Source: an uncultured virus (IMG/VR IMGVR_UViG_3300042558_001076) (Duplodnaviria; Heunggongvirae; Uroviricota; Caudoviricetes). From it: DNA of 64,000 nt. Location: the IMG/VR virus record IMGVR_UViG_3300042558_001076; one strand, given 5' to 3'. Positions 14,600 to 48,085 of the stretch are shown in pieces. The notes beneath the pieces are model-generated. The model was not told the DNA's origin and made no database searches. It was given only the letters and a program-made list of their open reading frames with translations. Made by a program: the position numbers and the translations under genes. How positions within the stretch are numbered: the stretch's first letter is position 1; the number at the start of each line of letters is the position of its first letter.

Positions 14600-14611
14600 A
14601 TATAATACGTT
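14600..14611 (-). promoter_or_regulatory. late promoter motif AACGTATTATAT
   Basis: exact reverse complement upstream of ORF 13831-14580. Confidence 0.65.
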
Positions 14612-19800: not shown

Positions 19801-20300
19801 TACTTAAAGTGTTTGTTTTCGAAGTAGAATAATTGGAATTTGTCAGTAGCGTCTATCAATTCTAATTTATTTAAGAAATCGCTATACAAAGCTACGCTAT
19901 CTTTTTGAATTGTCCTAAACTGTTGTAACAAATCAAAAGCGCATAGGTCTCCAATTTTAAAGACTGCTTTGCTAGAGTCTTCGTAATCTTCATAAAGTTT
20001 ATACTCCATTTCGTATGCTTGCTCAAGAATATCTACTAAGCCATCAAACTCCAAAGGAGGCTGCTCAATAGCATCTAATTCAGGGATAACATTCCAATCA
20101 CGGATAAACTTTTCAAGTATCTCAGAGTGTTCTAATTCTTCTTTAGACTCGTGTTGGAAGAACGCTCCTGCTTTCATATATCCTTTCTCAAAACACCAGT
20201 TAGCTGCTGCTTTATAGAAATAAAAAGCTTTATGTTCATCACATATTCTTGGGGTTAATTCTGCTACTACTTCTTTAGGTAGTTGTACTGGTTTTATCAT
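19800..20300 (-). CDS. ferritin (non-haem, FtnA-like)
   Basis: four-helix ferritin pattern: DEHKAFYFY, GAFFQHESKEELEH, QAYEMEY, DLCAFDLLQQFRTIQ. Confidence 0.85.
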   Translation of the reverse strand: MIKPVQLPKEVVAELTPRICDEHKAFYFYKAAANWCFEKGYMKAGAFFQHESKEELEHSEILEKFIRDWNVIPELDAIEQPPLEFDGLVDILEQAYEMEYKLYEDYEDSSKAVFKIGDLCAFDLLQQFRTIQKDSVALYSDFLNKLELIDATDKFQLFYFENKHFK

Positions 20301-20315
20301 TTTATATAGTTTTTA

Positions 20316-23300
20316 TTATAAACAATCTTTTCCTTTAGATTCAAGCAACTTAAGTCTACGTAGTTGGTCAAATAAGTCTTTAACGTCTTTCATATTCTCT
20401 GGTCTTGTAAACTCAGCTTCTTTAGCTTTCTGGGTGTACTCTGGTTTAGCTGCTTCAGTTTCTGTAGTTTGCTCTTCCATATCACTTTCAAATTCAAATG
20501 GCTGTTCTTCTGTAGCAACAGTAATCTCATCAGGGATAATAGCTGTTTTACCACCTATCTCTAAAATGTCCCCACTCTTAATAATTACATTACCTGAGTC
20601 AGTCTTAACTATCAAGTCACCATTAGCCATTTCATTTATTACTTGGCCTTTTACTTCTGCACCTGTAGCGTCCTTACCTAATACGTTAGCCCCAACTATA
20701 GTTTCTTTTTGTGGCTCTTCAGTTTTAACTTCTTCTACAACTTCTACCGCAGCAACAGGTTTACCTTCTACTTGACCTACAACTTCAAATCCTTCTTCAG
20801 TTCTAGCTTCTTTCTCTGCTTGTTGTTTCTTAGCTTCTTTTACTATCTCTGCTCTTCTATCTATCTCTGCTTTGTTTCTATTATAGTAATCTTGTTCAGC
20901 TTTATTTTTAGCAAATGCTAACTTACCTTTACTTGCTACTCTTTCAGCAAATTGGTTAAGCTTCATTTCTTTATTGCTATTTCTTTTTTCTTCTCTTAAC
21001 TTTTTTTCTTCAGCTGCTTTTGCCTCAGCTTGTCTTTTTGTTTCAATGTCAGCAAAGGTAATAACGTCATCTTTTAACATACCTTTTCTTTCCATTATCT
21101 TTAATGCACCATTAATGTATCCTTCAACTCTTCCTTGGTCATTATAACTAGGTAATAACCCATTATGAAGTGCGCTAGCTAAATCTTCTTTAGGTACGCC
21201 CATTTTTCTCAAGAAGTCTACAGCAGCTTTAAAAGCTTCAAACTCTGGGTTCTTCCCATATACCTTTCTGCCATTAGCATCTACAGTAGAGTTTAGGGTT
21301 TTAACAAAATCATTTAAAGCTTTTACTTTCTCTGACTCTGGTAGTGTATTATAATATTCTAAAAACGTCTTAATCTTTTCAGCAGCTGTTACTGTAGTAT
21401 TAGTAGCCTCATCAATAAAAGCACCTTCTACATTGCCATCTAATACGTCAGTAGCATCAACGTCTTCATCGTTATCAGCAATCTTTGTTTTAGTATCTTG
21501 GAATACTTTACTTGTAGCCTGTTTAATGTTCATGTCAACAGGTATTTCCTCTACGCCTAATTGAGTAGCAGCTTCAGGAGTACCAGGAACTTTTATGTTA
21601 TCCCAGTATTGTCTTTGCACTTCAGGGTCTGAGTCATGCATATCCGATACATTCTTAGCTGCTTCAGCAAATGTAATAGGTCTTAATACTTCAAAAGAAT
21701 TATCTACGTTACCTAATCTACCTCTTCTTGCTTCAACGATAGCTTGAGCAACTCTCTTACGGCCATCAATTATATTGCCATTCTCATCTAAAACAATTGG
21801 CATTGTTGTTTCTTCTCCAGTAACCTTTAAACTTCCAGACTCTATATCTTTGATATGTTTCTTAACAATAGGGTCGTTTTCAAATCTTAATGGGTTAGCA
21901 ACTTCGGAGAAAAACCCTAATGGAATTTCAGCCATAGACCTAACTTGGAAAGGTTTTAATCTTCCGTCAGGTGAAGCATCAGAAGCCTTTTGTACAACTT
22001 CATTAGAAGTAACTAATCTACCTCTAAATGCATTGCCATCTTGTATCTTTTTAATATCTCGAGATACAGTATTTATTTGATTAGAAATTGCCTCCATCTT
22101 ATCGGCAGCTTCTGTATTTCTTACAGGTATAATGTTCTCTGCACTTACAGGTGCATCAATACCAGATACTTTAAATTGGATATTACCATCAGGTCCTTCA
22201 TTAATAGACTCAACAGTAGCATTGCTTGTAATAACTTTTCCGTTGTTGTCTCTTACTTGAACTTCTTCTCCTTCTGATAAGCTTGTAGACATTTGCTTAG
22301 CAGCTTGGTTTCTTTTGTTGATTAAGTCTTCTCTTTCTGCTGAAGCAAACACATAGTTACCAAAATACTTTTTATTAAATCTAGGGTTGTTTTCCATAGA
22401 TACCATAGCATCTGTAACATATGGTTGTATTTTGTTTAATAATGAAATTGCTTTTCTTCCTTGTTCTGGCGATACAACTCCACTATTTATCTCTCTTGAT
22501 ATTTGCGTTACACTATTGGCAAAGTTCTTAGGAGAAGCCATATCAGCAACAGTATTTGTATAGTAACTGTTGTTGTTTTTGAACATTCTACCAGCACCTT
22601 TATAATCCATTAACCCATGGAGTGCGGCCATAGACAAGAAGCTTTTACCATACTCTTTCATTGCTTCTTTTGATAAGTACTCTTCTGGCTCTAATTGTAT
22701 ATCAGCAGCTTGAAAAGGTATATCCAAATCACCTACTTTATAAGTACCATCTTCAAATACGCCTGTAATCTTTTCTTTTACAACTTGGTTATTAGGTAAC
22801 TTGGCAGTTACTAAATCACCTTGCATAGGTATTCTATTTTCAGCGTACAAGTCTTTTGCTACTTTCTCCCCTACGGTTGCTAATGCACCTGAAGTACCAC
22901 TCATTGCAGCTCCTGTACCAAAATTTAACATTTGTCTAGTTGTAGACAAGTTCTTAGGGTTAAGTATAAACTTAGATAATGTATTCTTGTATGGGTTTAA
23001 ATTAAGGAAAGACCCAGGAAGAGAAAAGGCAAATGTTGTTGCCAAACCATTAGCTGTAGCAAACTTATGAGCATCTTCTTCAGATAGCCCCATCTTATCA
23101 GCTTGTTCTAAAGACTCACCTTTTGTTAGGTAGAATACTTTAGGAAACTGATTCATAAAATTGCTAGTTAAATTAATACCCCATCTTCCTAATTTGCTAG
23201 TAGCTATATCAGCAGTTAAAGCACCGATACCCTCAACAGGAATAGTGTATGGGGCAATAGTAGATGCAATCCCTGTTATGCCTTGAGCAAAACCTTTAGG

Positions 23301-24014
23301 GCTAACACTACCAGTCTTCTCATCAATAATAGGTACTTGTTCAACGTCTTTAATAAACTCTTGCTTAACTCTCTCTGCTGGCTTAGTAAATATACCTTTC
23401 TCTGCTTTGTTTATCTTGCTAACAGCTTCTTGTACATCGTAGTCTTCTAATGACTCTTGATTTTTTTGTAATTCAGCTTTTGCTCTACCAACATCAGATA
23501 GAAAAGAACCAATACCTTGCCAAACTTTACCTGCTGTTTTAACTAAGAAATCACCAGCGTATTTGGTAAATGGGTCATATTGTTCTTGTTTATTGGCTTC
23601 TGCAATCTCAGGCTCAAATTTAAACTCTCTTTGAGGGCTATAATCTACCTCTTCAACTGGACCAACAAATCTTTTCTTTTTCTCTGCAGTAACTTTAACT
23701 TCTGGTGCTGTATACTCTATAGGTTGATTTAATGAAGATATAGGCATACCAGAAAGATGCATTAAAGCATTATGGTATTGTGGGCTTGCTTGGGTTTTTA
23801 AATCTGTCCAAGATGAATTAATTAATTTAGAGGAACTTTTATCTAACTCGCCTTTCTTCCAACCCATGTAGTCTTTTGCAAGAGCGTCCATTCTATTGTT
23901 AAAATCAGGACTCTCGTAATCTAACTTACCATATTGGTCAATATATGCTTGGTTAATTAAATCTTGGTCATCGTCATTTAATACAACGCCATTAATAACT
24001 ATTTTATCTTGCAT
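20316..24014 (-). CDS. large virion cargo/ejection protein with a ParB-like domain
   Basis: 1232 aa; amphipathic Gly/Ala region and MPIVLDENGNIIDGRKR ParB/Srx-like motif. Confidence 0.55.
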   Translation of the reverse strand: MQDKIVINGVVLNDDDQDLINQAYIDQYGKLDYESPDFNNRMDALAKDYMGWKKGELDKSSSKLINSSWTDLKTQASPQYHNALMHLSGMPISSLNQPIEYTAPEVKVTAEKKKRFVGPVEEVDYSPQREFKFEPEIAEANKQEQYDPFTKYAGDFLVKTAGKVWQGIGSFLSDVGRAKAELQKNQESLEDYDVQEAVSKINKAEKGIFTKPAERVKQEFIKDVEQVPIIDEKTGSVSPKGFAQGITGIASTIAPYTIPVEGIGALTADIATSKLGRWGINLTSNFMNQFPKVFYLTKGESLEQADKMGLSEEDAHKFATANGLATTFAFSLPGSFLNLNPYKNTLSKFILNPKNLSTTRQMLNFGTGAAMSGTSGALATVGEKVAKDLYAENRIPMQGDLVTAKLPNNQVVKEKITGVFEDGTYKVGDLDIPFQAADIQLEPEEYLSKEAMKEYGKSFLSMAALHGLMDYKGAGRMFKNNNSYYTNTVADMASPKNFANSVTQISREINSGVVSPEQGRKAISLLNKIQPYVTDAMVSMENNPRFNKKYFGNYVFASAEREDLINKRNQAAKQMSTSLSEGEEVQVRDNNGKVITSNATVESINEGPDGNIQFKVSGIDAPVSAENIIPVRNTEAADKMEAISNQINTVSRDIKKIQDGNAFRGRLVTSNEVVQKASDASPDGRLKPFQVRSMAEIPLGFFSEVANPLRFENDPIVKKHIKDIESGSLKVTGEETTMPIVLDENGNIIDGRKRVAQAIVEARRGRLGNVDNSFEVLRPITFAEAAKNVSDMHDSDPEVQRQYWDNIKVPGTPEAATQLGVEEIPVDMNIKQATSKVFQDTKTKIADNDEDVDATDVLDGNVEGAFIDEATNTTVTAAEKIKTFLEYYNTLPESEKVKALNDFVKTLNSTVDANGRKVYGKNPEFEAFKAAVDFLRKMGVPKEDLASALHNGLLPSYNDQGRVEGYINGALKIMERKGMLKDDVITFADIETKRQAEAKAAEEKKLREEKRNSNKEMKLNQFAERVASKGKLAFAKNKAEQDYYNRNKAEIDRRAEIVKEAKKQQAEKEARTEEGFEVVGQVEGKPVAAVEVVEEVKTEEPQKETIVGANVLGKDATGAEVKGQVINEMANGDLIVKTDSGNVIIKSGDILEIGGKTAIIPDEITVATEEQPFEFESDMEEQTTETEAAKPEYTQKAKEAEFTRPENMKDVKDLFDQLRRLKLLESKGKDCL

Positions 24015-30970: not shown

Positions 30971-31041
30971 GTGCCAAGACAGGGATCGAACCTGCGTCTC
31001 CCACCTACAATGGTGGAGTGTTACCATTACACTACTTGGCT
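30971..31041 (-). tRNA. atypical tRNA (Gln-like, TTG in a 6-nt loop)
   Basis: GCCAAG/CTTGGC acceptor, GTGT-AATGGTA-ACAC D arm, CCACC-ATTGTA-GGTGG arm, GCAGG-TTCGATC-CCTGT T arm. Confidence 0.6.
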
Positions 31042-31359: not shown

Positions 31360-31373
31360 AATTTTTATTTTAG

Positions 31374-31453
31374 TAGTCAGGACAGGACTCGAACCTATAA
31401 ATTTTAATGGATTTACTGCCCATTAATGCGGCTACCAATCCCGCCACCTGACT
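31374..31453 (-). ncRNA. tRNA-like RNA with extended anticodon stem (GTA in loop)
   Basis: same acceptor stem; GCGG/CCGC D stem; TTAATGG/CCATTAA stem; TTCGAGT T loop. Confidence 0.7.
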
Positions 31454-32935: not shown

Positions 32936-33790
32936 TTATTTTAAAGATTTTTTTAAGTGGGCTATAGTTTCTTTTACAAACTTGTTGCCACTTGACGTAG
33001 ATACTTTGTGTTTACTACACATATCATCAAACGTCTGTTCTATCAGGTTATACTTAGATAGTAATAAGTCTTTTGCCTTTTCATTAAGGGTATTGATATG
33101 CTCAAATGTAATAGCGTATTCTGTTACGCTATACATCTCATAAGAGTATATACCACCATCGGATACAAAGTCTATCTCGTCGTGGTTATTTGTTGATACG
33201 ATTGCAGTTGTCGCAGATAGTGCACCGAGTGCTGCTGCCATTTCCATAGTTACGTTTTGTTTTAATACAACATCTAAAGGTATCATTCTTTCGTCCAACT
33301 CCATTACAGCTACTGCTGTGTCCATCATCTTCTTAAGTTTTTGTGATGCTCTTAACGGTGAGTAGGTAATCTTTACTATACATTTATTCTTTTCTATAAA
33401 GTCTATTATGTATTTCCTGCTATAGAAGAAGCAATAAGATGATAGCTTAGCCTTTCCAAACTCTGAATACTTCTCATTGTTATACTTGTCTATCCCTAAC
33501 ATGAAACCCATAACGGCTTCTTGTAATAAGTCACTTACTAAAAACCCAGGTTGCCAATACTTAATAGCAACATATAGCATTAGCTTCATGTAACCCTCAA
33601 CAATCTTATCTCTATACTTTAACTCACCTGTTGACTTATAAAGTTTGAATAGCTCCATAGCTTCTTCATTCTTCATTTGGGCTGCCTTTCTTTTAAAGAT
33701 AGGGTCATTAAGTAGTATTGACAACGAGTAATCATTGTCAAAGTCTACGTTAGTAGGGTTTACAGATATTGATTTGAAGCTATTGCCCAC
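32936..33790 (-). CDS. sigma-70-family RNA polymerase sigma factor
   Basis: RDKIVEGYMKLMLYVAIKY..SDLLQEAVMGFMLGIDKY..LSSYCFFYSRKYI aligns to sigma region 2; C-terminal region-4-like HTH. Confidence 0.8.
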   Translation of the reverse strand: MGNSFKSISVNPTNVDFDNDYSLSILLNDPIFKRKAAQMKNEEAMELFKLYKSTGELKYRDKIVEGYMKLMLYVAIKYWQPGFLVSDLLQEAVMGFMLGIDKYNNEKYSEFGKAKLSSYCFFYSRKYIIDFIEKNKCIVKITYSPLRASQKLKKMMDTAVAVMELDERMIPLDVVLKQNVTMEMAAALGALSATTAIVSTNNHDEIDFVSDGGIYSYEMYSVTEYAITFEHINTLNEKAKDLLLSKYNLIEQTFDDMCSKHKVSTSSGNKFVKETIAHLKKSLK

Positions 33791-36328: not shown

Positions 36329-36359
36329 AGTTTATTTGTTTTTAGTTGTTAATAATTTG

Positions 36360-36439
36360 TAGTCAGGACAGGAATCGAACCTGCAAGTTTTAATGGATTT
36401 ACTGCCCATCAATGCGGCTACCAATCCCGCCACCTGACT
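36360..36439 (-). ncRNA. second copy of the extended-stem tRNA-like RNA
   Basis: near-identical to 31374-31453 with pairing-compatible changes; TAACTTTG promoter element at 36446-36453. Confidence 0.7.
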
Positions 36440-39177: not shown

Positions 39178-40083
39178 TTATTTCCAGGCCAAAGGGTCAT
39201 AAGCTGACTTTGGTTGGTCGTAAGATTTATTATAGTGGACAATTTCTTCATCACGCTCGCTAATGTATTCATCGCCATACATCTCATACATCATAGAGTC
39301 ATAGCAATCCCAACATACCATAGCGTTATTGAAGTCAGGCAACTCTTCTAACTCATCTTTGTGGTATAACTCACAACAAGACTCACACATCATATCCTCA
39401 CTATTAGCGTCGCTATCCCATTTGTATTGAGACTTAACATCATAGGTGTCGTCCCAATCATTGTACACACGAGGATAACCTACGCTTGTACTTGGGGAGT
39501 ATGCACTACCATACGTATAGTTATTGTACGTAGGTTTTTTATAACTATAACTATAAGACTTGTTACTGAACCAACAACCCAAGTCCCACGTACCTGCTTG
39601 CTCGTTGACGATACGCCAATGGCCGTGCTCGTTAAAGAATATGAACTTGTTACCATTGCCTATACTATACTCAATAAGGTCAAGCAAAGTATCGTTATAC
39701 ATAAAGTCCTTAGGTAAGCCTTTGAGGAACCCATTGTTGAATATCTGGGTGTCAGATATAGGGCTGTTGTGTGGGACATGAACATCTAACATACCATTGT
39801 GTACAAACCATGTATCATCTTGTACATGGAATGGGTGACAGTTGTGTTCGTTAACACCACCACTTGTACCGATACGGAAGTGAAGGATAACGTCATTACC
39901 TGAACGCTTGGCTTCTTGATAATAACCATAGAAGATATTGAAGTCAGTCATTTCTTTCTTGGCTACTACTTTGTTGTTATTGATATACAGGATACCTGCA
40001 CCATCATTATTATTATCCCAACAATTCTGTAGGATTTGTTTCTTAAGGGTTACTGCTTTTGGATTTACGATTGCGATACACAT
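39178..40083 (-). CDS. class II glutamine amidotransferase
   Basis: N-terminal MC, N.DGAG, HFRIGTSG, NCHPF, HNG and SDT motifs; C-terminal CxxC pairs. Confidence 0.9.
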   Translation of the reverse strand: MCIAIVNPKAVTLKKQILQNCWDNNNDGAGILYINNNKVVAKKEMTDFNIFYGYYQEAKRSGNDVILHFRIGTSGGVNEHNCHPFHVQDDTWFVHNGMLDVHVPHNSPISDTQIFNNGFLKGLPKDFMYNDTLLDLIEYSIGNGNKFIFFNEHGHWRIVNEQAGTWDLGCWFSNKSYSYSYKKPTYNNYTYGSAYSPSTSVGYPRVYNDWDDTYDVKSQYKWDSDANSEDMMCESCCELYHKDELEELPDFNNAMVCWDCYDSMMYEMYGDEYISERDEEIVHYNKSYDQPKSAYDPLAWK

Positions 40084-40086
40084 AGT

Positions 40087-41328
40087 TTAATTGTTTTGAT
40101 TGTTAGTGAAAGGATTAATATTTTTATCAGCAATGAACTTGCGAAGATACGGATATTCATTGTTATCTTTAATAAAAGTTAGAAAAGATTTTAGACTCAT
40201 ATCAGGGTCAGGGATAGACTTGGTATAGTCATACAACGCTTGAACAAACTCGATGTTCTTGAAGAACGATGAGTCATTAAGCGTACCCCTAAAGATACGA
40301 ACTTCTACTGAATTATCATTCTGTAAATTTACAGCAAGATAACGCTTGCTATTGCCACGCTTTTTCTTTGCCTTGTACATAAGCGTCTCTTGTGTGTACT
40401 CTTTAGTACTCTCGCTTGGGTCATCGGTAAGGGCTGCCCATCGGTCAAGGTTCTCTATCTTACGCTGAGATATCTTGGTAACAAAGTCACTATTGTCAAC
40501 AAAGAACTTCATGAAGCGATATAGATGCCAGGTTGTAAAGGCATTCTTGCTGATATGGATATGCATACCACAAGTACGAGTGTCATAGCTACGATACTTG
40601 TTGCTACGCAATAGGTTAAGTATATCTGCCCATACATTCTTATGCTTCTTGATATACGATATAGTCATAGGGTGGGTTACAATCTCAAACCCATTGTTAA
40701 GTGAACCGTCACTCTTGAAGTATAAGAAGTCATTGCTAACCATTTCAGCCATAGCCTTGTGTGTTACATTACTATCTCCACGCTCTACCTCTAACTCAAT
40801 ACCTAGATACACGTTGTCATTCTCGGACACCTTGTAGAACTTAGGGGTAGGTTTGTAATTGTAGCTGCGTATGATTTCTTTACTGCTGCTGCTACCGTCA
40901 TCATCATCGTCACCATATCTATCGTTATAACAATCATTGCACAAATCGTCTTGACAATAGTTATCCTCATGAACATACTCATCACAACTCTCACACCAAT
41001 AGTAATCAGAACGACAATCATCACATACATATCTTTCACTACCACTTCTACCATGGACTTGGCATATATCGTCGTTGCGAATTACTTCATTACAATCATC
41101 ACATGTAGAAAATCTGTTGACGTAACAATCATTACACCAAGAGTCATCATTTGCGAAATAAGTATCATCGCTGTGGATAACATCACTACAACCAGCGCAT
41201 GAGTGATAGTTGTCGTTACAATCTTCGCATATAGGGTCACCTACATTGTCTACATAATCTTCGCTTGTTATTTCTGTTGAGCAATCAGCACAATGAAGTA
41301 CATCTTGCTCTTCTGTTGTTGTTGGCAT
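40087..41328 (-). CDS. putative amidoligase (COOH-NH2 ligase) with Cys-rich N-terminus
   Basis: GIELEVE, KSDGSL..GFEIVTHP, TCGMHIHIS, RYLAVN and VEVRIFRGT; repeated CxxC. Confidence 0.85.
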   Translation of the reverse strand: MPTTTEEQDVLHCADCSTEITSEDYVDNVGDPICEDCNDNYHSCAGCSDVIHSDDTYFANDDSWCNDCYVNRFSTCDDCNEVIRNDDICQVHGRSGSERYVCDDCRSDYYWCESCDEYVHEDNYCQDDLCNDCYNDRYGDDDDDGSSSSKEIIRSYNYKPTPKFYKVSENDNVYLGIELEVERGDSNVTHKAMAEMVSNDFLYFKSDGSLNNGFEIVTHPMTISYIKKHKNVWADILNLLRSNKYRSYDTRTCGMHIHISKNAFTTWHLYRFMKFFVDNSDFVTKISQRKIENLDRWAALTDDPSESTKEYTQETLMYKAKKKRGNSKRYLAVNLQNDNSVEVRIFRGTLNDSSFFKNIEFVQALYDYTKSIPDPDMSLKSFLTFIKDNNEYPYLRKFIADKNINPFTNNQNN

Positions 41329-41475: not shown

Positions 41476-42513
41476 TTAGTGTCTAGGTCTAAATCTAATA
41501 TAGGTATAACCTTTGCTTATAAACGTATTCATTTCAATATCGCTATGGTCAAATCGTAAGTACCCATGAAGCGACTCATTAGTTGTAATGTCTTCATTCA
41601 TTAACACCAAGGGATAATAGCTATTGCTTTCAGCTTTTAATGGAGTATAAGAAAGGTTGTTGTCAGCCCTTGTTAACTTTATCCAATCGTTATACTTGTA
41701 TAACTTAGGATATAACTCGGCTAATAACTTCTTAACTTCATCGCCACTATCTAAAAACATACGTGCTGAATGGTCACCGAATAGGTTACGGAATTGGTCA
41801 CGCTTAGCCCTAAGGTCTTCGTGTACCCATTCCTCAAAGTAATGGTGGGCATATCTTGATTCACCACCTACCTCATCTTTGACATAGGTATAGTATTCGT
41901 CACGCTTAGTTACCTCATACACACCACCTAGGTTTACATAATTCCATTTGTCAGTAAGACAAACTACTTTCTCGGTAGTTACTACTACCTCATCTTGTGC
42001 CTCGTTCTCGAGGTTGTTTGTTTGCTCAGGCATAGTATTAAAAGGTTGGTTTAATACGTATTCAATAAATTGTTCGGTTGATATTTCTATTTGGCAATGG
42101 GTTGGGATACTTCGTTCAATTGCTACCCAATAACCACGCTGATTGTTGTGTTCGCTAAGTATATAGCCTTCAAGTGTGTCTAAATGACCTGCCATTCTCC
42201 AACGACCTAACATCTCTCTGTTTTCTTCTGTTACTTTGATATGCCAATTGCCAGGTAACAAGTACTCAATACCTAAGTCATTCATAAGTATTTCTTGCTC
42301 AACATTCAAAGCTCTTAAACCATAGAGAGTTCTATATGACATGTCAGGGTGGGGTCTTACATCAAATACTCTAACAACATCACCATTATTAAATTGGGAA
42401 TTTCTTATATTGTCATTAGCAAATCCCATTGCTCTAAACATTTCTCTATAAGAACTGTAATTGTAATCTCTGTCGGTGATGCGAACTAAGTCGCCTACAT
42501 TAATTGTTGCCAT
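41476..42513 (-). CDS. hypothetical multi-domain early protein
   Basis: 345-aa intact ORF. Confidence 0.6.
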   Translation of the reverse strand: MATINVGDLVRITDRDYNYSSYREMFRAMGFANDNIRNSQFNNGDVVRVFDVRPHPDMSYRTLYGLRALNVEQEILMNDLGIEYLLPGNWHIKVTEENREMLGRWRMAGHLDTLEGYILSEHNNQRGYWVAIERSIPTHCQIEISTEQFIEYVLNQPFNTMPEQTNNLENEAQDEVVVTTEKVVCLTDKWNYVNLGGVYEVTKRDEYYTYVKDEVGGESRYAHHYFEEWVHEDLRAKRDQFRNLFGDHSARMFLDSGDEVKKLLAELYPKLYKYNDWIKLTRADNNLSYTPLKAESNSYYPLVLMNEDITTNESLHGYLRFDHSDIEMNTFISKGYTYIRFRPRH

Positions 42514-42531
42514 TGTAGTTTTATTTATAGG

Positions 42532-42747
42532 TTAATTAATTTTGTGTCCTGTTACTACGCCATAATACCAATCATACCAATTGTCAAAATGTTTTTGCCC
42601 TTCTTCTGTATATTTGGAGGGCTCATCATCGTCATCACTATCCAAATAGGGATAGAAGATTTCACTTGTTTGATACATCGTATCTAATTGAGATTGGGCT
42701 AAGTAAGTAGCCAATTCTACAGGGTTTACTTGGATTGTTTGTGACAT
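42532..42747 (-). CDS. hypothetical protein
   Basis: intact ORF. Confidence 0.55.
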   Translation of the reverse strand: MSQTIQVNPVELATYLAQSQLDTMYQTSEIFYPYLDSDDDDEPSKYTEEGQKHFDNWYDWYYGVVTGHKIN

Positions 42748-42764
42748 ACGTTTGTTTTATAGGG

Positions 42765-43022
42765 TTAATTAATAAGTTCTACTTGCGAAGGGCATAATTC
42801 TAAATCTAATGGGGATACACCATTGTATTCTTTATCTTGCTCTCCTTCGCATATATATTTAGGAATATACCCACACTCGTCAATTAAACCTTGTACGCTT
42901 TTTTCAATTTTTCCTGTATTAATCAATTCATTCATACAGCTGTAACCGAATGATTTTACTTCGTCGCTGTCAGAAAAGTACCAATCAAGAAATCTTTCTC
43001 GTGTTATTTTGTATTGTGCCAT
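42765..43022 (-). CDS. hypothetical protein
   Basis: intact ORF. Confidence 0.55.
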   Translation of the reverse strand: MAQYKITRERFLDWYFSDSDEVKSFGYSCMNELINTGKIEKSVQGLIDECGYIPKYICEGEQDKEYNGVSPLDLELCPSQVELIN

Positions 43023-43028
43023 ATAGTT

Positions 43029-43343
43029 TTATTTTTTAGGATAATAATTTAATTGTTCAACCCATACTTTATTTTTGTCAACTATAAATTCGTCCCAATC
43101 TTTTATTTGCTCATCTTCTAAAGAGGTGTAGTTGTCAATCATTCCTATTTCCCATTGTCTAAATGCATTTAGGATATTGATATAAACATCTAGTTTAACC
43201 AAACGAGCATCATCTTCATCTTCATATGCTGAATGCACATTCTCTCTGTAATCTCCGTATTCACCTAATGAATACTTAACGAGGTAAATTGGTTTTTGTT
43301 CCATAGTACTAATTAAAATTAAAGGGTACACGATTAGATACAT
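43029..43343 (-). CDS. hypothetical protein
   Basis: intact ORF; start may be the internal MEQKP. Confidence 0.5.
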   Translation of the reverse strand: MYLIVYPLILISTMEQKPIYLVKYSLGEYGDYRENVHSAYEDEDDARLVKLDVYINILNAFRQWEIGMIDNYTSLEDEQIKDWDEFIVDKNKVWVEQLNYYPKK

Positions 43344-43526
43344 ATTTGTTTTGGCAATGTTTATTCATGCCATCGCCTTTGCCCCATGACGCTTTTGGCG
43401 TTGAGCAAGAAAGAAGCCCTAACGTAATTAGGGCTATTGTAAAACTGATTTTTAAAATTGTCAAAAAGGACATACGTTGTGTTTTGTAGGTAAAAGAAAA
43501 AGATGAACGTGGAGAAAAATAAAGTG

Positions 43527-43706
43527 CTATTTGCTATTTATCTTCTCATCTATCTTTGCGTAGATAAGAAAGATAATACCGCCCTCAACCATACCGATTA
43601 GGGACATGATTAGCTCGGTCATTGTTTGCCCGTGTATCATTGTAATTGTTGAGCCTCCGATTAACAATAAAGATAACACAGCAAGCAAGTGATGAAGTTT
43701 AAACAT
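43527..43706 (-). CDS. small two-TM membrane protein
   Basis: MFKLHHLLAVLSLLLIGG...; start coupled to the upstream 54-aa ORF 43699-43863. Confidence 0.5.
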   Translation of the reverse strand: MFKLHHLLAVLSLLLIGGSTITMIHGQTMTELIMSLIGMVEGGIIFLIYAKIDEKINSK

Positions 43707-43898
43707 GGCTATACTTTTTATAAGATGAAACAATAAAATACCCACTTAGTAAGCCGTGGATATTACTACAAACAAATTTTACATTTCTGTACCTAGATTT
43801 TAGGTTCATGTAAGCCAAACGGAAGCCTTGCTCGGTTCGGTTTTGGAATTGGATTTCTCTCATGTTGTTTTGTTTTAAGAGTTATTGATTATGTATTA

Positions 43899-44159
43899 TT
43901 ATTTTATTAATCCTATTGTAGACCTTGATTGTCGGTGATAATTAGTTTTAATTATAGTATTAGATACTATCTTTTTAGTATCTTTTATTGCATTATGGGT
44001 ATTGACAATTAATTGATTAAGATTAATTTGTCTGTTTGTGTTAATATCAATAGCGTTAGTATAGCTTTTATTAACATTGCCGTAAGTTAAGGGCTTGATA
44101 TTATTTTTGCTCATTGGTTTATATCTTCTTGATTGAAGAAAATTGATATCTTTATTCAT
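43899..44159 (-). CDS. Asn/Lys-rich hypothetical protein
   Basis: intact ORF in the early region. Confidence 0.45.
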   Translation of the reverse strand: MNKDINFLQSRRYKPMSKNNIKPLTYGNVNKSYTNAIDINTNRQINLNQLIVNTHNAIKDTKKIVSNTIIKTNYHRQSRSTIGLIK

Positions 44160-44189
44160 GATTATATATTTTAAAAGTTATAAAATGAG

Positions 44190-44805
44190 ATAGTAGGCGG
44201 TAAATGAACCGCATAACATTGCTGTTATCAATTCTAAATTACTACTACCTTTGCTCTGTAATAAATAAAATGATTAATAATTACTTGATTAGATATTTAT
44301 TATATTGAATACCTTACATTATTTGTAAGATACCTTAATGGGATAAGCCATATAACAATAAAATAGCATTTCGCTACTTGTATTTATTAATTAGCATTTC
44401 GCTAACTTATAAATAAATACCCTTTATTGTGTACTCATTGAGCTATTAAGATATATTAAATACCTAACTATTTGCATACAAGCCGTATTAACGGCACTTG
44501 CTTAATTATACCCTATAAATGTAGGCTATAAAAACAAAACTAATAAAAACAATTAGCGTACTTTGTACGGCTTACGGGAGTAAAAAGCATTTCGCTTTTA
44601 TAGTTACTTTACCCGTAAAATTGAAAAATGTACTATATCATTTCGCTGTTACCTTACGGCAATATGGCGTACATTTTTTTTAAATTGCATAACTTTGTAT
44701 AAATTACATTAACTATATTATAGTGCCCTATATATGAATTGAACATATTAAAAATACCTACTATTATAAGGCAATTATAGGGCTATAAATTAATATAGCC
44801 CTATA
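44190..44805 (-). other. hairpin-rich non-coding region with repeated GCGAAATG element
   Basis: at least eight inverted repeats; four CATTTCGC copies. Confidence 0.55.
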
Positions 44806-44810
44806 TATTA

Positions 44811-45326
44811 TTACTTGCTTAAGTTTTTGTAGTAATTAGCTACAAAGTTTTGTACTTGCTTATAAGTAAAGTACCTTTTTACTTTATTGCCGTCTTTGTC
44901 AAGTATAAACGTACGTACTATATTGCCTTTTTTATCAAGTTTTGTACTCCCGTCTTTATTTTTTTCTATCTTTGTAACATATTTTTGCTCTTCTGTTAAA
45001 CTATCTAATATTAAAGGCAATTTATAGGTATTATCATTATAATTAGAAAAACTATTTAAAAACGCTTTGCCGTGTGTTAAAATGTTTTTAAGGTGTGCAC
45101 TCAAAGTTAATTCAGCCGTGGCGTAATTTTCGTAAGATATGCCCTTAATTTCGGCTAACTTTTTCCCCGTTACTCCCTCATTTAAAAATACTATACGTAC
45201 TTTTTTAGCGGCTTTTTTCTTATTTGTTTTTGCCATGCTATTATTAACAGGTTTAATAGCTTCTTTGCTTTTGTTAGTAGCTTTAATGTTTTTAGCTTTT
45301 TGCGGTGTGTTTAATTGTGTTGACAT
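44811..45326 (-). CDS. highly basic early protein
   Basis: Lys-rich 171 aa; first gene of the leftward arm. Confidence 0.6.
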   Translation of the reverse strand: MSTQLNTPQKAKNIKATNKSKEAIKPVNNSMAKTNKKKAAKKVRIVFLNEGVTGKKLAEIKGISYENYATAELTLSAHLKNILTHGKAFLNSFSNYNDNTYKLPLILDSLTEEQKYVTKIEKNKDGSTKLDKKGNIVRTFILDKDGNKVKRYFTYKQVQNFVANYYKNLSK

Positions 45327-45875
45327 AATTTTTTTGTTTTTGTTTTGTTAGTTAAAAAAATGAATTGATACTATACAAAAAATAATAGTTAAAATAGCGT
45401 CAATACTACATTATAGCGTTATTTTGTACCTATAAAATAACAATTTACCCGACTATAAAAGTAACTATAATAAAGAAAAGTATTAATAATCAATGAGTTA
45501 TGAGGTATTACCTAAACTAATAAGTTACACAAAGCATATAAAAGGGTAATTTATAGGTATTTAGATAGTCCCATATGCTTTTTACCTTTAGTTAATCAAT
45601 ATAAGGTACTCAAAATCAATTTATATAAGTAAAAAAAAATTACAAAGTACAAAGGTACCCATTAAAAAAAAGCCAATTTCCCAAAAAGGACCATCATGAC
45701 AAAGTATGTATATCATCCCCACCTTTATGTAGCTAACTTCCATTAGTACACTTAGTGCCTCCTTCTTTTATTATAAGAAGTAAGGTGGTTCAAACCCTTA
45801 TGGGGCGTAGTAGGTTTTCCGTATATGTGAATAATTATTTTTGTATAGCGGAAAAAGTAGTTGTACATTTGTGCT

Positions 45876-46298
45876 ATGGACAATGAGTTAAAAGGCATAC
45901 GCAGGGTTGCCAAAAAGATACCTGTTAAGCGTTTGGTAGATGTAGACAATGGTGAGGTTATGGATGTCATGGAAGATGATAGGTTTCTAACTATTGATAG
46001 TTTACCTTTTGTCAAGGTGTATACTGATGAGTTCGCCAAGGCTATCTATGGGTTGCCTTATATTGGCTACCAGCTATTGTCATATGTAGTGTTTAAGTTA
46101 GAGAAGGGCAATAACCTAGTTTATATCGATTATACGGACGTTAAATCAATAATAGGTAACATTGGTAAGACAGGGTATTATAATGGCGTAAAGGAGCTAA
46201 TAAAGCGTAATGTGATTGCCAAGACAGAAAGGAAGTATGTGTATAGGGTTAATCCTAATCTAATGTTTAATGGGGTTAGAATATCTAAGTTCAAATAA
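45876..46298 (+). CDS. RepL-like winged-helix replication/maintenance protein
   Basis: VDVDNGEV, FVKVY, GVKELIKRNVIAK and YRVNPNLMFNG motifs; TACATTTG promoter element at 45864-45871. Confidence 0.7.
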   Translation: MDNELKGIRRVAKKIPVKRLVDVDNGEVMDVMEDDRFLTIDSLPFVKVYTDEFAKAIYGLPYIGYQLLSYVVFKLEKGNNLVYIDYTDVKSIIGNIGKTGYYNGVKELIKRNVIAKTERKYVYRVNPNLMFNGVRISKFK

Positions 46299-46308
46299 CG
46301 TATTATAT
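46297..46308 (+). promoter_or_regulatory. late promoter motif AACGTATTATAT
   Basis: exact motif upstream of ORF 46325. Confidence 0.65.
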
Positions 46309-46324
46309 TTGTAAATTAATTAAA

Positions 46325-46618
46325 ATGAGTTTTACTAAAGATACTAATTACCAAGCAGGGCAAGCAAAGCTTTTTGTGAATACTACACCTACTGCTGGTC
46401 AAGTAGCATATAATGTTGATTTATCAGCTAATGGTCAGCCAGGATATTGTGGTGGATTGTACATTGGTGGTGCTGGTAACTTGATTGTTGTTATGGCACA
46501 AGATACTACTGACACCTTAGTTACTTTCAATAGTGTAGTAGCTGGTACTTTCTTACCTATTCAAGTGAAGAAAGTTAGTTCTACTTCTACTGCTACAAAC
46601 ATTATGGGTTTATGGTAA
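46325..46618 (+). CDS. small virion structural protein
   Basis: LYIGGAGNL.V...GTFLPIQVKKV motif common in phage structural proteins. Confidence 0.6.
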   Translation: MSFTKDTNYQAGQAKLFVNTTPTAGQVAYNVDLSANGQPGYCGGLYIGGAGNLIVVMAQDTTDTLVTFNSVVAGTFLPIQVKKVSSTSTATNIMGLW

Positions 46619-46734
46619 ACGTAATATGGAATATAATAACAGATACAGCAGATGTTGCTTCTACTATTATATCTAACATATGGAATTTAGTTACACTTAA
46701 TTGGGAGAATGACTCAAACAATTGGGAAGCTTAA
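46612..46734 (+). CDS. 40-aa Trp-repeat peptide (not in ORF track)
   Basis: MVNVIWNII...IWNLVTLNWENDSNNWEA*; in the -1 frame of the upstream gene. Confidence 0.5.
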   Translation: MVNVIWNIITDTADVASTIISNIWNLVTLNWENDSNNWEA

Positions 46735-46753
46735 CAATATAAAAAATTAACTA

Positions 46754-48085
46754 ATGGCAACATTAACAGGAACCCAGATAAAAAATACTTATCAATCTTT
46801 ATTAAAGATAAACACTAATGGTAGCTTAGACCCTTCAACGGCTATAACTATATCCGATGGATTAGGTAATGCTACTCCATTACAGCTAGCTGGTAACAGA
46901 TTAAAAACTATAAACTCTGGAACAGAGAGAGGTATGGATTTAAACTTTGATACCTCTAATTATAGATTTGGAGATTACAATGGTTATGCAACATATACTT
47001 ATATAGATATAACTGCTGTTGGAACAGGGCCAGCAATAACATTAATGGCTTATGGAACTTCTATAGTTTTAGATGGTGTACAAGGTAATGTACTTACAAG
47101 TTTTTTGGGTAGTTATAATTTAAATGCTGGATTTCATAAAAATGTAATTACTAATTGCGACTGGTCAATATTTGCAAATCCTGTAAATTATATTTTTACA
47201 GACAATACTATTATTAATACAAATGGTAATTTAAATATAAGTAGTGCTACTTTAATTAATAACTGTTTTTTAAATAATGAAATTTTTACTATTGTTTCTT
47301 CTCCAGATTATGCTTTAGGAGAAAGAATAAGTAATTCTTTATTATTTGGTTTAAATAACGATATAGGTCCAAATAATTTAAATATATATAGTGTAAATAC
47401 ACCAACCAATGTAGTGGTTATTAATGGTAGTGACCTTGAGTATAATCAAAAAACTAGTAATGTATTTTCAGTAAATGCTTCAAGCGTTGTTACTGATGCA
47501 AATGCTTCTGGTGTTGTTATATTAGGTGGCGACTATTTTGATAGTTTAAGCAATGTATATGTAACAGCTAATCACGAATTTAGCGGAACTAATCTATATG
47601 GAGTTACAATTCAAGGTAATAAAGCATTAGTAACAAATAAATTTTCAAGAGTAGTTGCTAATTCATTTGAAAACAATTCAACAGATTTAGGTCAAGTACA
47701 AATAGAAGACATTCAATTGTTTTACCATTTTCTAGATGGTTCTTTAAATTTTCCTTTATTAAATTCTCAAGGAGAAAGTCAAGTTAAATTATTAAGTAAC
47801 TCATCTTATTTCTTTGAATTAAAAATTGTTTCCGTATCAAATGCAGTTACTTCATCTAATGGTAACTATGTAGAATATATAGGTGGTTTAATTTGCGTTG
47901 ACAGTATAGGTAATGTTACAATAGACCAAGCCGTTATTAAACAATACGGACAGCATACATCTGGCAATTATACTATTTTAAGCAATGCAGCAAACACAAT
48001 AGAATTTATTGTAGAACCTGATGCTTCAACAGGGGTTGAGTGCTGGGTAAAAGCAGATTTAAAATTAAATTGCGTAACTTCATAA
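46754..48085 (+). CDS. head/tail fibre-like structural protein
   Basis: MATLTGTQIKNTYQSLLK..ISDGLGNATPL N-terminus; Asn-rich beta repeats. Confidence 0.6.
   Translation: MATLTGTQIKNTYQSLLKINTNGSLDPSTAITISDGLGNATPLQLAGNRLKTINSGTERGMDLNFDTSNYRFGDYNGYATYTYIDITAVGTGPAITLMAYGTSIVLDGVQGNVLTSFLGSYNLNAGFHKNVITNCDWSIFANPVNYIFTDNTIINTNGNLNISSATLINNCFLNNEIFTIVSSPDYALGERISNSLLFGLNNDIGPNNLNIYSVNTPTNVVVINGSDLEYNQKTSNVFSVNASSVVTDANASGVVILGGDYFDSLSNVYVTANHEFSGTNLYGVTIQGNKALVTNKFSRVVANSFENNSTDLGQVQIEDIQLFYHFLDGSLNFPLLNSQGESQVKLLSNSSYFFELKIVSVSNAVTSSNGNYVEYIGGLICVDSIGNVTIDQAVIKQYGQHTSGNYTILSNAANTIEFIVEPDASTGVECWVKADLKLNCVTS

What the first reader, a model, noticed from the sequence alone, without database searches (positions are those of the whole stretch)
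44190..44805. ~600-bp hairpin-dense region with four GCGAAATG elements downstream of a basic early gene
Seen: hairpins AGC-GAAAT-GCT (minus strand) at 44364-44376, 44391-44405 and 44583-44599, plus CATTTCGC at 44639-44646. Several are nested in longer stems (44380-44420, 44572-44618, 44624-44678), and there is a 12-bp stem at 44776-44805. Known: lambdoid boxB sites are GNRA-like pentaloop hairpins bound by basic N proteins, and N4 uses hairpin promoters. Inference: either a large ornate ncRNA or a multi-site nut-like antitermination or early-promoter array read by the Lys-rich protein 44811-45326.
Basis: partly seen in the sequence, partly recalled or inferred. Interest (0 to 1): 0.7.

Follow-up and report, generated by a model that had tools for sequence, protein, structure and literature searches.

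The report
Conserved hairpin-studded phage noncoding RNA region
A 650-base gene-free stretch in an uncultured freshwater phage most likely makes a folded RNA that shows several copies of one small hairpin, a layout also found in distant relatives and matching no described RNA family.

Summary
Window 44160-44810 is the longest stretch in the window without an ORF of 60 aa or more (651 bp, 26% GC).

The motif is better read as a hairpin tip G-Y-G / AAA / Y-G-C: an AAA triloop closed by G-C or G.U. It is not a boxB-like GNRA pentaloop.

The same tip recurs, on the gene-sense strand, in long gene-free gaps of four other phage lineages:
- L156/L157, syntenic with the window;
- L049/L159/L160;
- L075;
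- L161.

In 4 of these 5 lineages (window included) the gap sits next to a homologue of the 171-aa Lys-rich protein. The surrounding stems keep their pairing through compensatory changes (19 of 62 and 17 of 49 pairs; 0 of 500 shuffles reach this). GNRA tetraloops fall 12:1 on the sense strand. Sense-strand terminators close the gap in two lineages, and in L161 a sub-threshold hammerhead match lies between the hairpins and the gene.

Best reading: a transcribed, structured RNA carrying repeated protein-binding hairpins. The Lys-rich protein is the leading but unproven partner. A replication origin remains a live rival. No expression data exist.

The parts
44811..45326 (-). Gene for the 171-aa protein P0001. 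Residues 1-44 hold 12 Lys and 1 Arg and are predicted disordered; a small alpha/beta domain follows. It is the first gene of the leftward block.
   Evidence: ORF list and translation. No PHROG or Pfam hit. Small family in alignments A3-A5. AF2 mean pLDDT 66, residues 1-41 below 50. No fold match.
44160..44810 (-). The whole 651-nt gene-free region, read on the minus (gene-sense) strand: the proposed structured RNA.
   Evidence: Longest stretch without an ORF of 60 aa or more. Fold z -5.85. The 5' 330 nt align with L156/L157 with covarying helices. No Rfam family.
44776..44805 (-). H1: perfect 12-bp hairpin 5 nt after the stop codon.
   Evidence: I13; z -3.63. L156, L157, L049, L159 and L160 each have a hairpin of different sequence at or just after their stop codon.
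44725..44772 (-). H1b: 8-bp stem (44765-44772 with 44725-44732). Its third stem pair is U.G here, C-G in L157 and G-C in L156.
   Evidence: sequences read.
44624..44678 (-). H2: perfect 10-bp outer stem. It encloses a GUAA-tetraloop hairpin (44649-44662) and the one motif copy that is not a hairpin (44638-44647).
   Evidence: (I18). In A8, helix 7 (9 pairs, 2 with changes on both sides, 100% paired) and helix 8 (6 pairs, 4 with changes on both sides, 100% paired).
44572..44618 (-). H3: nested hairpin tipped by motif copy 2 (44586-44596).
44479..44500 (-). H5: 8-bp GC-rich hairpin with one bulge.
44354..44431 (-). Y-shaped module. An enclosing stem (about 44424-44431 with 44354-44362) holds H6 (44380-44420, motif copy 3 at 44393-44403) and H7 (44361-44379, motif copy 4 at 44365-44375).
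   Evidence: (I6, I7). L049/L159/L160 carry an analogous pair of motif hairpins inside an enclosing stem.
44306..44334 (-). H8: 9-bp hairpin with one G.U.
   Evidence: z -1.72, weak on its own.
44197..44228 (-). H9 (GCAA-tetraloop hairpin, 44213-44228) and H10 (5-bp GC hairpin, 44197-44212) at the 3' end of the gap.
   Evidence: (z -2.93).
43899..44159 (-). Downstream gene P0002 (86 aa, no family). A homologue follows the gap in L156.
   Evidence: 50% identity to L156 2948-3190.

Best explanation
The 651-nt gap is transcribed on the minus strand, together with or just behind the 171-aa gene. It works as a folded RNA. That RNA displays three (plus one degenerate) copies of a conserved hairpin tip, G-Y-G / AAA / Y-G-C, on stems of variable sequence, among other hairpins that include GNRA tetraloops. 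The repeated tips are most likely binding sites for one protein. The leading candidate is the co-located Lys-rich P0001-family protein. The pair would then form a regulatory or ribonucleoprotein unit at the head of the leftward (presumably early) gene block. It could control downstream genes, by read-through, stability or translation, or act in trans. Shown here: the motif cluster; its recurrence in relatives; stem covariation; the sense-strand bias; terminators in relatives; gene neighbourhood. Inferred: that the region is transcribed in this phage; that a protein binds the tips; which protein; and what the outcome is.
For: (1) The motif cluster is far above chance and occurs at a single locus per genome. 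The window has 4 of 4 sites here. G001 has the same 4 only. The complete 63.5-kb relative G002 has 2 of 2 in its gap.
(2) The same tip recurs on the gene-sense strand in gene-free gaps of 627-770 nt, or in a roughly 330-nt leader, in four other lineages: L156/L157 (3 copies, and at least 1 in the truncated L157), L049/L159/L160 (2 each), L075 (2) and L161 (2, upstream of the gene). Between lineages blastn-short finds the motif hairpins and nothing else, apart from one 13-nt L157/L161 match at E 0.018.
(3) The stems under the tip differ between copies but stay complementary. The core occurs as C..U, U..C or C..C, which is what pairing allows; the double-wobble U..U form is not seen among the tips fetched, though GTGAAATGC occurs once elsewhere in G003, context unread.
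(4) MAFFT alignments plus RNAalifold give 62 pairs with 19 changed on both sides (window/L156/L157), and 49 pairs with 17 changed on both sides (L049/L159/L160). Cells paired are 93.5% and 95.9%, against 29-49% when partners are slid. 0 of 500 shuffles reach any of the five measures.
(5) Strand evidence. Consensus energies favour the sense strand (-31.4 vs -26.7; -32.8 vs -29.2). The whole-gap MFE is lower on the sense strand in 5 of 8 gaps and about equal in 3. GNRA-tetraloop hairpins number 12 on the sense strand against 1 on the antisense across the 8 gaps.
(6) Terminator-like hairpins with a T-run close the gap on the sense strand in L075, L049 and L160, with compensatory changes between the last two.
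(7) In L161 the two motif hairpins lie between a Bacteroidota-type -7 box and a hammerhead match just before the gene.
(8) Indels of 1, 2, 4 and 7 nt among relatives argue against coding.
(9) A P0001-family gene adjoins the hairpins in 4 of 5 lineages. In the syntenic L156/L157, neighbouring proteins are 72-96% identical but P0001 only 34-35%, and every motif copy has switched from ..AAAU.. to ..AAAC...
Against: There is no expression evidence of any kind for this phage. Each covariation alignment has only 3 sequences, two of them close to each other. The structures were predicted from the same alignments, so the long-range helices in particular are unproven. Folding z-scores are almost equal on both strands in the window. 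A8's G.U count is biased by predicting on the sense strand. The window and L156 have no clear terminator at the 3' end of the gap, and no conserved promoter was found. L075 has the hairpins beside a protein with no detectable similarity to P0001 (hhalign probability 0.1%). Four of 7 non-window P0001-family lineages have no exact motif within 2.5 kb. P0001 has no recognisable RNA-binding fold. The locus sits at the strand switch, in the most AT-rich kilobase, at the cumulative GC-skew minimum, and about 1 kb from a RepL-like gene whose position is conserved. That also fits an origin. G.T-tolerant hairpins and GNA/GNRA loops can form in single-stranded DNA too.
Confidence: 0.55

Rival explanations
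1. Replication origin. The AT-rich gap is the phage origin, or part of it. The repeated dyad-symmetric motifs are initiator sites or single-strand DNA hairpins used for unwinding or priming. The neighbouring RepL-like winged-helix protein, or P0001, would be the origin-binding protein.
For: Lowest GC of the window (0.264) and the cumulative GC-skew minimum in the 44001-45000 bin. Four same-orientation repeats at a single locus per genome. The RepL Pfam match of ORF 45861-46298 just reaches its cut-off (20.7 vs 20.3 bits, E 3e-4). That gene keeps its divergent position in L156, L157 and L162, with a weak match also in L160 (21% identity over 75 residues, E 7e-4). The phage has its own primase-helicase. 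Both strands fold about equally well in the window.
Against: Repeat spacing is irregular (28, 193 and 51 nt). What is conserved under the tips is pairing, not half-site sequence, and many other hairpins with no sequence conservation also covary. GNRA loops fall 12:1 on the gene-sense strand. Sense-strand terminators bound the gap in L075, L049 and L160. In L161 the hairpins sit in a leader that ends in a hammerhead match. A far better conserved block lies in the truly divergent spacer at 45742-45797 and is an equally good origin candidate.
Confidence: 0.17
2. Processive antitermination array (nut- or put-like). The hairpins in the nascent RNA, alone or with P0001 as an N-like factor, modify host RNA polymerase so that it reads through terminators into the downstream genes.
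For: Position just downstream of the first gene of an operon at a divergent control region. A small, very basic, partly disordered protein is encoded next to its putative sites. There are several hairpin copies. In L049/L159/L160 two hairpins are 1 nt apart and a strong terminator follows in the same gap.
Against: The loop does not meet the boxB pattern: its last base is Y and paired, not A. No boxA-like element was sought or found. P0001 is Lys-rich (12 K, 1 R in residues 1-44), not Arg-rich. The window itself shows no convincing terminator to overcome. In L161 the hairpins precede the protein gene itself, which fits autoregulation better. Nothing here tests polymerase modification.
Confidence: 0.12
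3. N4-type hairpin promoters. The DNA hairpins are extruded and used as promoters by a phage-specific RNA polymerase.
For: In form they are 4-7-bp GC-clamped stems with a 3-nt purine loop, clustered near the start of a gene block. That resembles N4 early promoters as I recall them; no paper was read for this.
Against: The purine loop is on the coding strand of the flanking genes, so as a template-strand hairpin it would drive antisense transcription. Relatives show host-type -7 boxes and intrinsic terminators around the element. No polymerase-like protein was recognised: the 1729-aa, 1232-aa and 1301-aa proteins have no Pfam hit, the first two also no PHROG or PDB-sequence hit, and no D.D.D motif of convincing context was seen. 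This is absence of evidence only.
Confidence: 0.03
4. No specific function: an AT-rich spacer with selfish or drifting palindromic repeats (REP- or MITE-like).
For: AT-rich DNA forms many chance hairpins. The 9-mer also occurs in unrelated contigs as coding or tandem repeats.
Against: One locus per genome rather than dispersed. The tip is retained across lineages whose adjacent protein is only 27-35% identical. Compensatory changes are seen. There are no substitutions in 43521-45140 in a 99% relative that has 31 differences in the next 1.4 kb.
Confidence: 0.05

Closest known systems
Lambdoid nut sites (boxB hairpin) with N protein
   Same: Short hairpins in the nascent early transcript, next to a gene for a small, basic, partly disordered protein. 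More than one site per genome.
   Different: The boxB loop is a GNRA-like pentaloop ending in A (recalled). Here the fifth base is U or C and pairs with G, leaving an AAA triloop. The basic tail is Lys-rich, not Arg-rich. There are 3-4 sites within 280 nt, embedded in a 650-nt structured region. No boxA was found. The host is Bacteroidota.
HK022 put RNA
   Same: Two adjacent stem-loops in an early transcript, as in the L049/L159/L160 module with hairpins 1 nt apart.
   Different: put acts without a phage protein and has its own conserved stems (recalled). No sequence or Rfam similarity was found. The element here is ten times longer.
Protein-sponge RNAs with repeated hairpin loops (CsrB/RsmZ type)
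   Same: One noncoding RNA presenting several copies of the same small hairpin loop on variable stems. This suggests multivalent binding of one protein.
   Different: A different loop (AAA on a G-Y clamp, against GGA; recalled). It is phage-encoded, has only 2-4 copies, and its partner is unknown.
Large 'ornate' bacterial and phage ncRNAs (GOLLD, ROOL, HEARO, OLE)
   Same: Several hundred nucleotides, many hairpins, GNRA tetraloops, found by comparative genomics, function unknown at discovery. Some are phage-borne (recalled).
   Different: No match to any of the 4227 Rfam models, even at E up to 5. Only the small hairpin, not a global architecture, is shared between lineages.
Iteron-type origins (lambda ori, plasmid oriV)
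   Same: Several same-orientation short repeats with internal dyad symmetry in an AT-rich stretch near a replication-protein gene.
   Different: Irregular spacing. Stems covary instead of keeping half-site sequence. Sense-strand RNA features are present.
N4 early hairpin promoters
   Same: A GC-clamped short stem with a 3-nt purine loop, in clustered copies.
   Different: The loop strand is the coding strand of the flanking genes. No N4-like virion polymerase was recognised.

Membership tests
Lambdoid boxB/nut | Hairpin with a GNRA-like pentaloop: first base G and last base A form a sheared pair (recalled definition). | tested here: not met
   The loop reads GAAAU in the window, L049, L159, L160 and L075, and GAAAC in L156/L157. 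The last base is always a pyrimidine able to pair with the G. It changes together with the second stem base (C..U, U..C, C..C).
Lambdoid boxB/nut | Arginine-rich-motif N protein encoded nearby. | tested here: inconclusive
   The adjacent protein has a disordered basic N-terminus, but with 12 Lys and 1 Arg in residues 1-44. It has no family hit.
Lambdoid boxB/nut | Causes read-through of downstream terminators. | not testable with these tools
Any Rfam family (including GOLLD, ROOL, HEARO, hammerhead, riboswitches) | Covariance-model score at or above the family's gathering threshold. | tested here: not met
   Whole window at gathering thresholds: only a tRNA at 30971-31041. Region 43800-45900 at E up to 5: best is 22.9 bits against a cut-off of 154. 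The relatives' gaps gave nothing either.
Iteron-type replication origin | Three or more same-orientation repeats with regular spacing. | tested here: inconclusive
   Four same-strand copies, but start-to-start spacings of 28, 193 and 51 nt.
Iteron-type replication origin | AT-rich unwinding region and a neighbouring initiator gene. | tested here: met
   GC 0.264. A RepL-like ORF at 45861-46298 is just at the Pfam cut-off and is syntenic in relatives.
Iteron-type replication origin | Replication starts there. | not testable with these tools
   The GC-skew minimum coincides with the transcription strand switch, so it does not discriminate.
N4-type hairpin promoter | Template-strand hairpin with a purine loop upstream of the genes it drives (recalled definition). 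| tested here: not met
   The AAA loops are on the minus strand, which is the coding strand of the flanking minus-strand genes.
N4-type hairpin promoter | Giant virion RNA polymerase. | tested here: inconclusive
   The 1729-aa, 1232-aa and 1301-aa proteins have no Pfam hit; the 1729-aa and 1232-aa proteins also have no PHROG or PDB-sequence hit (the 1301-aa protein matches PHROG 14478, virion structural protein). Such polymerases are hard to detect by sequence.
Type III toxin-antitoxin (ToxIN-like) | ToxN/AbiQ-family endoribonuclease next to tandem RNA repeats. | tested here: inconclusive
   No Pfam family for P0001 at E up to 0.01. No such chain appeared among the structure matches. The repeats are dispersed hairpins, not tandem units.

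The most novel reading that the evidence does not exclude
The gap encodes a stand-alone ornate noncoding RNA that assembles with the fast-evolving Lys-rich P0001-family protein into a phage ribonucleoprotein. The G-Y-G/AAA/Y-G-C tips would be the protein's docking sites. Protein and tips would co-evolve: ..AAAU.. with the window's protein, ..AAAC.. with the 34-35%-identical L156/L157 protein, while flanking genes stay 72-96% identical. The particle would act in trans on the host, for example as a decoy or take-over factor in an arms race. In sister lineages the same gene is paired with a long leader RNA: in 4 of 9 such loci (L161, L162, L163, L166) a hammerhead core sits just before the gene and may release that RNA. 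That would make 'small basic protein plus large RNA' a conserved two-part module of this phage clade.
Probability: 0.2. Interest if true: 0.8.

Novelty: new variant of a known kind. Interest (0 to 1): 0.6.

Why it matters
Phages of freshwater Bacteroidota are almost unstudied, and very few large structured RNAs are known from any phage. This locus offers a testable unit: one 9-nt hairpin tip, 2-4 copies per genome, at one locus per genome, beside a small basic protein of unknown fold. If the RNA is real, it adds a new RNA family. It may also add a new RNA-protein recognition pair, useful in the way MS2, PP7 and boxB tags are. It would also point to how these phages organise early gene expression in hosts that lack the classical enterobacterial factors. 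If it proves to be the origin instead, it would define origin architecture for a whole clade of uncultured podophages.

Tried and rejected
RNA evidence: the look-up of sequencing runs listed 24 holders, and no RNA holder was listed. Laying contigs of 4 DNA runs (X13, X16, X17, X18) showed no variant inside 44160-44810 and patchy cover, so it gave no covariation data.

Close relatives: L004 (99%) has no substitution in the region, so it is uninformative for pairing.

Searches that found no further relatives:
- P0001 alone in viral contigs.
- The 345-aa neighbour.
- The RepL-like alignment.
- A1 in metagenome contigs.
- A5 in genome contigs.
- TerL relatives L015 and L019 end before the region.
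- Cultured-phage records hold nothing like the region or the protein. blastn with the window, L075 and L049 regions gave no match; L156 gave only a 69-nt chance hit in a Campylobacter phage; tblastn with two family members gave no match.

Motif-pair scans of viral contigs. The 11-mer pair found only the same phage and an unrelated high-GC contig. By eye, nearly all were coding repeats or tandem repeats. Only the window's phage, L066 (the same place as L049), L096, L116 and L075 were hairpin-type.

Protein function. There was no PHROG, Pfam or PDB-sequence match. The exhaustive HMMER search gave 7 hits, of which 3 long proteins looked like low-complexity matches and were dropped from the alignments. 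The Atlas gave no hit at 0.9 or above. Foldseek gave nothing at E up to 0.001. VIA-align's best Z was 4.7.

Other checks:
- Hammerhead core in the window: 0 matches.
- A host-type -7 box on the plus strand at 44690 with the 12-bp hairpin as terminator (an antisense small RNA) was considered. The box is not conserved in L156/L157.
- Small ORFs in the gap (34 aa plus strand, 30 aa minus strand) are not conserved and are broken by indels.
- Literature: a full-text search for the three 9-mers returned primers and unrelated hits only. Two topic searches gave nothing on such an element; only listings and abstract starts were read.
- Earlier findings of this scan: nothing.

Rows left out. Scripts hid loci of the window's own phage. 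L167 and L168 (the same phage) were not re-examined. Complex prediction was not used, because it cannot take RNA.

Full report
WHAT THE WINDOW IS

The window is most of a genome of more than 64 kb from an uncultured lake-water phage. It has a terminase, portal and major head protein of phage type. Its large terminase is about 29% identical to those of Flavobacterium and Cellulophaga podophages. Bacteroidota-type -7 boxes (TAnnTTTG) stand before several genes and a tRNA. DNA runs holding it are lake-water metagenomes. A near-identical virus record, G001 (62,956 bp), carries the region unchanged.

Genes run leftward from about 45.3 kb and rightward from about 45.9 kb. The finding therefore lies just inside the leftward block, after its first gene.

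THE OBSERVATION

All four GCGAAATG sites of the window lie on the minus strand between 44367 and 44646; 0.59 are expected, and 0 of 100 shuffles reach 4. Three of them are exact AGCGAAATGCT hairpin tips. The fourth has one mismatch and does not pair.

The 12-bp stem 44776-44805, the 10-bp stem 44624-44678 and the long imperfect stems around the motifs are all found. The 651-bp gap is the longest stretch of the window without an ORF of 60 aa or more. It lies in the window's most AT-rich kilobase. It folds about 5.5-5.9 SD better than shuffles on either strand.

WHAT THE MOTIF REALLY IS

Relatives show that the conserved unit is G-Y-G / AAA / Y-G-C.

| Lineage | Form of the tip |
|---|---|
| Window | GCG-AAA-UGC in every copy |
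| L156/L157 (syntenic relatives) | GUG-AAA-CGC or GCG-AAA-CGC |

The second and seventh positions thus vary only in ways that keep C-G or U.G, and G-C or G.U. The double-wobble form is not seen among the tips fetched; GTGAAATGC does occur once elsewhere in G003, and I did not read its context. This is an AAA triloop on a three-pair clamp, not a boxB-type pentaloop.

Below the clamp the stems differ from copy to copy and from phage to phage but remain complementary.

RELATIVES

Sequence searches with the 171-aa protein P0001 found very few homologues. Profile-guided scans then located family members with their DNA. An independent motif-first scan was run as well.

Five lineages carry the hairpin tip in a long gene-free stretch on the strand of the adjacent genes:
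- The window.
- L156/L157. The gene is followed by a 703-nt gap with three tips, then a homologue of the window's next gene. L157 is cut off after 327 nt and shows one tip.
- L049/L159/L160. The gene is followed by a gap of about 550-770 nt, with two tips 1 nt apart inside an enclosing stem.
- L075. This lies in a complete 63.5-kb genome whose terminase is 35% identical to the window's. It has a 627-nt gap with two tips, but after a 116-aa basic protein with no detectable similarity to P0001.
- L161. Two tips lie upstream of the P0001-like gene. They sit between a -7 box and a sub-threshold hammerhead match (37.1 bits against a cut-off of 48.5).

Counting the 13 non-window loci found protein-first, 6 have the motif within the fetched flanks. 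That is 3 of 7 lineages.

The other four lineages (L162; L163/L164/L166; L165; L169/L170) have a long GC-richer noncoding leader of 500-600 nt before the gene instead. In L162, L163 and L166 a hammerhead core lies just before the gene. The core matches in L164, L169 and L170 lie elsewhere in those loci, and L165 has none.

Within genomes the motif is confined to this one locus: G001 4 of 4, G002 2 of 2, G004 2 of 2. G003 has 2 in the leader and 2 elsewhere.

EVIDENCE FOR A FOLDED RNA ON THE GENE-SENSE STRAND

- Between lineages nothing but the small hairpin is alignable.
- Within lineages the MAFFT alignments show helices kept by compensatory change. For window/L156/L157 there are 62 predicted pairs, 19 with changes on both sides, and 93.5% of cells paired. 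For L049/L159/L160 there are 49 pairs, 17 with changes on both sides, and 95.9% paired. Sliding the partners by 1-3 columns drops pairing to 29-49%. None of 500 column shuffles reaches the observed values.
- The most convincing local helices are H2's outer stem, the GUAA-tetraloop hairpin inside it (4 of 6 pairs changed on both sides, loop invariant), H1b and the motif stems.
- Indels among relatives are often 1, 2, 4 or 7 nt long, so the gap is not coding.
- Strand: consensus folding energies favour the sense strand.
- Whole-gap energies favour the sense strand in 5 of 8 gaps and tie in 3.
- Hairpins with GNRA tetraloops number 12 on the sense strand and 1 on the antisense strand. Related sequences are counted separately in that total, so the independent count is smaller.
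- Terminator-like hairpins followed by T-runs close the gap on the sense strand in L075, L049 and L160, with compensatory differences between L049 and L160.

Caveats. Each alignment has three sequences, two of them close. The structures were derived from the same alignments. The long-range helices are weakly supported.

LINK TO THE LYS-RICH PROTEIN

P0001 has a disordered N-terminus with 12 Lys and 1 Arg in 44 residues, followed by a small domain of moderate model confidence. No family or fold match was found.

Its gene adjoins the hairpins in 4 of 5 lineages.

In L156/L157 the flanking proteins are well conserved: RepL-like 72-73%, p85 84% and p71 96%. P0001 is only 34-35% identical and the next gene 50%. 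All motif copies have switched variant together. That pattern is what co-evolving partners would show, but two data points cannot prove it, and L075 is a counter-example. I put the specific partner claim at about one in three.

MECHANISM AND RIVALS

I commit to the following. The region is part of the leftward early transcript. It folds into a multi-hairpin RNA, and its repeated tips recruit a protein. The consequence for the downstream genes or for the host is unknown.

Antitermination is one possible outcome but has no direct support, and the boxB and Arg-rich-motif features are not met.

A replication origin is the main rival. The supporting facts are the AT-richness, the skew minimum, the single locus per genome, and a conserved neighbouring RepL-like gene that just reaches the Pfam cut-off. 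The irregular spacing, the conservation of pairing rather than sequence, the strand-biased GNRA loops, the terminators and the hammerhead context all speak against it. A better conserved 55-nt block in the divergent spacer at 45742-45797 is an alternative origin or operator candidate.

N4-type hairpin promoters are unlikely, because the purine loops lie on the coding strand.

COMPARISON WITH WHAT IS KNOWN, AND NOVELTY

No Rfam model matches the window region or the relatives' gaps. Nothing similar is in 50,697 cultured-phage records. A full-text search for the 9-mers found only primers; this covers open-access papers and bioRxiv only.

The element works like known hairpin-array RNAs (nut sites, sponge RNAs) and resembles large ornate RNAs in size, but it meets the defining features of none. 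I file it as a new variant of a known kind: a candidate new phage RNA family with a repeated triloop hairpin. It is unproven until transcription is shown.

Noticed in passing
window 45742-45797: A block of about 55 nt in the divergent spacer between the P0001 gene and the RepL-like gene is almost identical in the window, L156 and L157. The rest of the spacer is much less conserved. It contains a small hairpin and is a candidate operator or origin.
   Followed up: partly
L161 2334-2388; L162 2367-2386; L163 2408-2431 and 2885-2908; L166 2408-2431: Hammerhead-ribozyme cores lie directly before P0001-like genes, and in L163 also directly after. This suggests the gene and its long leader RNA are cut apart. 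Rfam scores only L161, below threshold (37.1 vs 48.5 bits).
   Followed up: partly
L162-L170, about 500-600 nt upstream of the P0001-like genes: Long, GC-richer, gene-free leaders precede the gene in the lineages that lack the hairpin motif. No Rfam match was found. They may be a second kind of large RNA paired with this protein family.
   Followed up: no
window 45141-46567 versus 43521-45140: In a 99%-identical relative (L004), 31 of the 33 differences over window 42001-47000 fall in 45141-46567 (start of the P0001 gene, the spacer, the RepL-like gene). None fall in the gap or the 3' part of the gene.
   Followed up: no
window 45861-46298 (+): ORF with a RepL (plasmid replication protein) Pfam match just at the cut-off (20.7 vs 20.3 bits). 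Its divergent position next to the P0001-family gene is kept in L156, L157 and L162, with a weak match also in L160 (21% identity over 75 residues, E 7e-4).
   Followed up: partly
window 30971-31041, 31373-31453, 36359-36439 (-): ARAGORN calls three tRNA-like genes: one with an odd two-base anticodon call (Rfam tRNA 44.6 bits) and two 81-nt tRNA-Ala(GGC) calls that Rfam does not report at gathering threshold. The last is preceded by a TAACTTTG -7 box.
   Followed up: no
window 32936-33790 (-): 284-aa protein with a weak Sigma70 region 2 match (22.1 bits, below the cut-off of 24). It may be a phage sigma factor.
   Followed up: no
window 39178-41328 (-): An adjacent amidoligase (Amidoligase_2) and class-II glutamine amidotransferase-like pair. 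An amidoligase homologue also lies near the locus in L159 and L161.
   Followed up: no
window 14611-24014 (-): Two very large proteins (1729 and 1232 aa) in the replication-side block have no PHROG, Pfam or PDB-sequence match. The 1729-aa protein has only unannotated homologues.
   Followed up: partly
L074, L083, L101, L118, L128; L007: Unrelated viral contigs carry 15-nt tandem repeats that contain GCGAAATGC. A high-GC contig has operator-like repeats with the 11-mer next to a repressor-like gene. The 9-mer alone is therefore not diagnostic of this element.
   Followed up: no
L075 2893-2965: Just after the gap's terminator there is a stretch with a T-arm-like GGTTCGATTCC. ARAGORN calls no tRNA there.
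   Followed up: partly
L165 4755-4787: DUF805b RNA match above its Rfam cut-off (42.8 vs 35.6 bits), about 2 kb downstream of the P0001-like gene.
   Followed up: no
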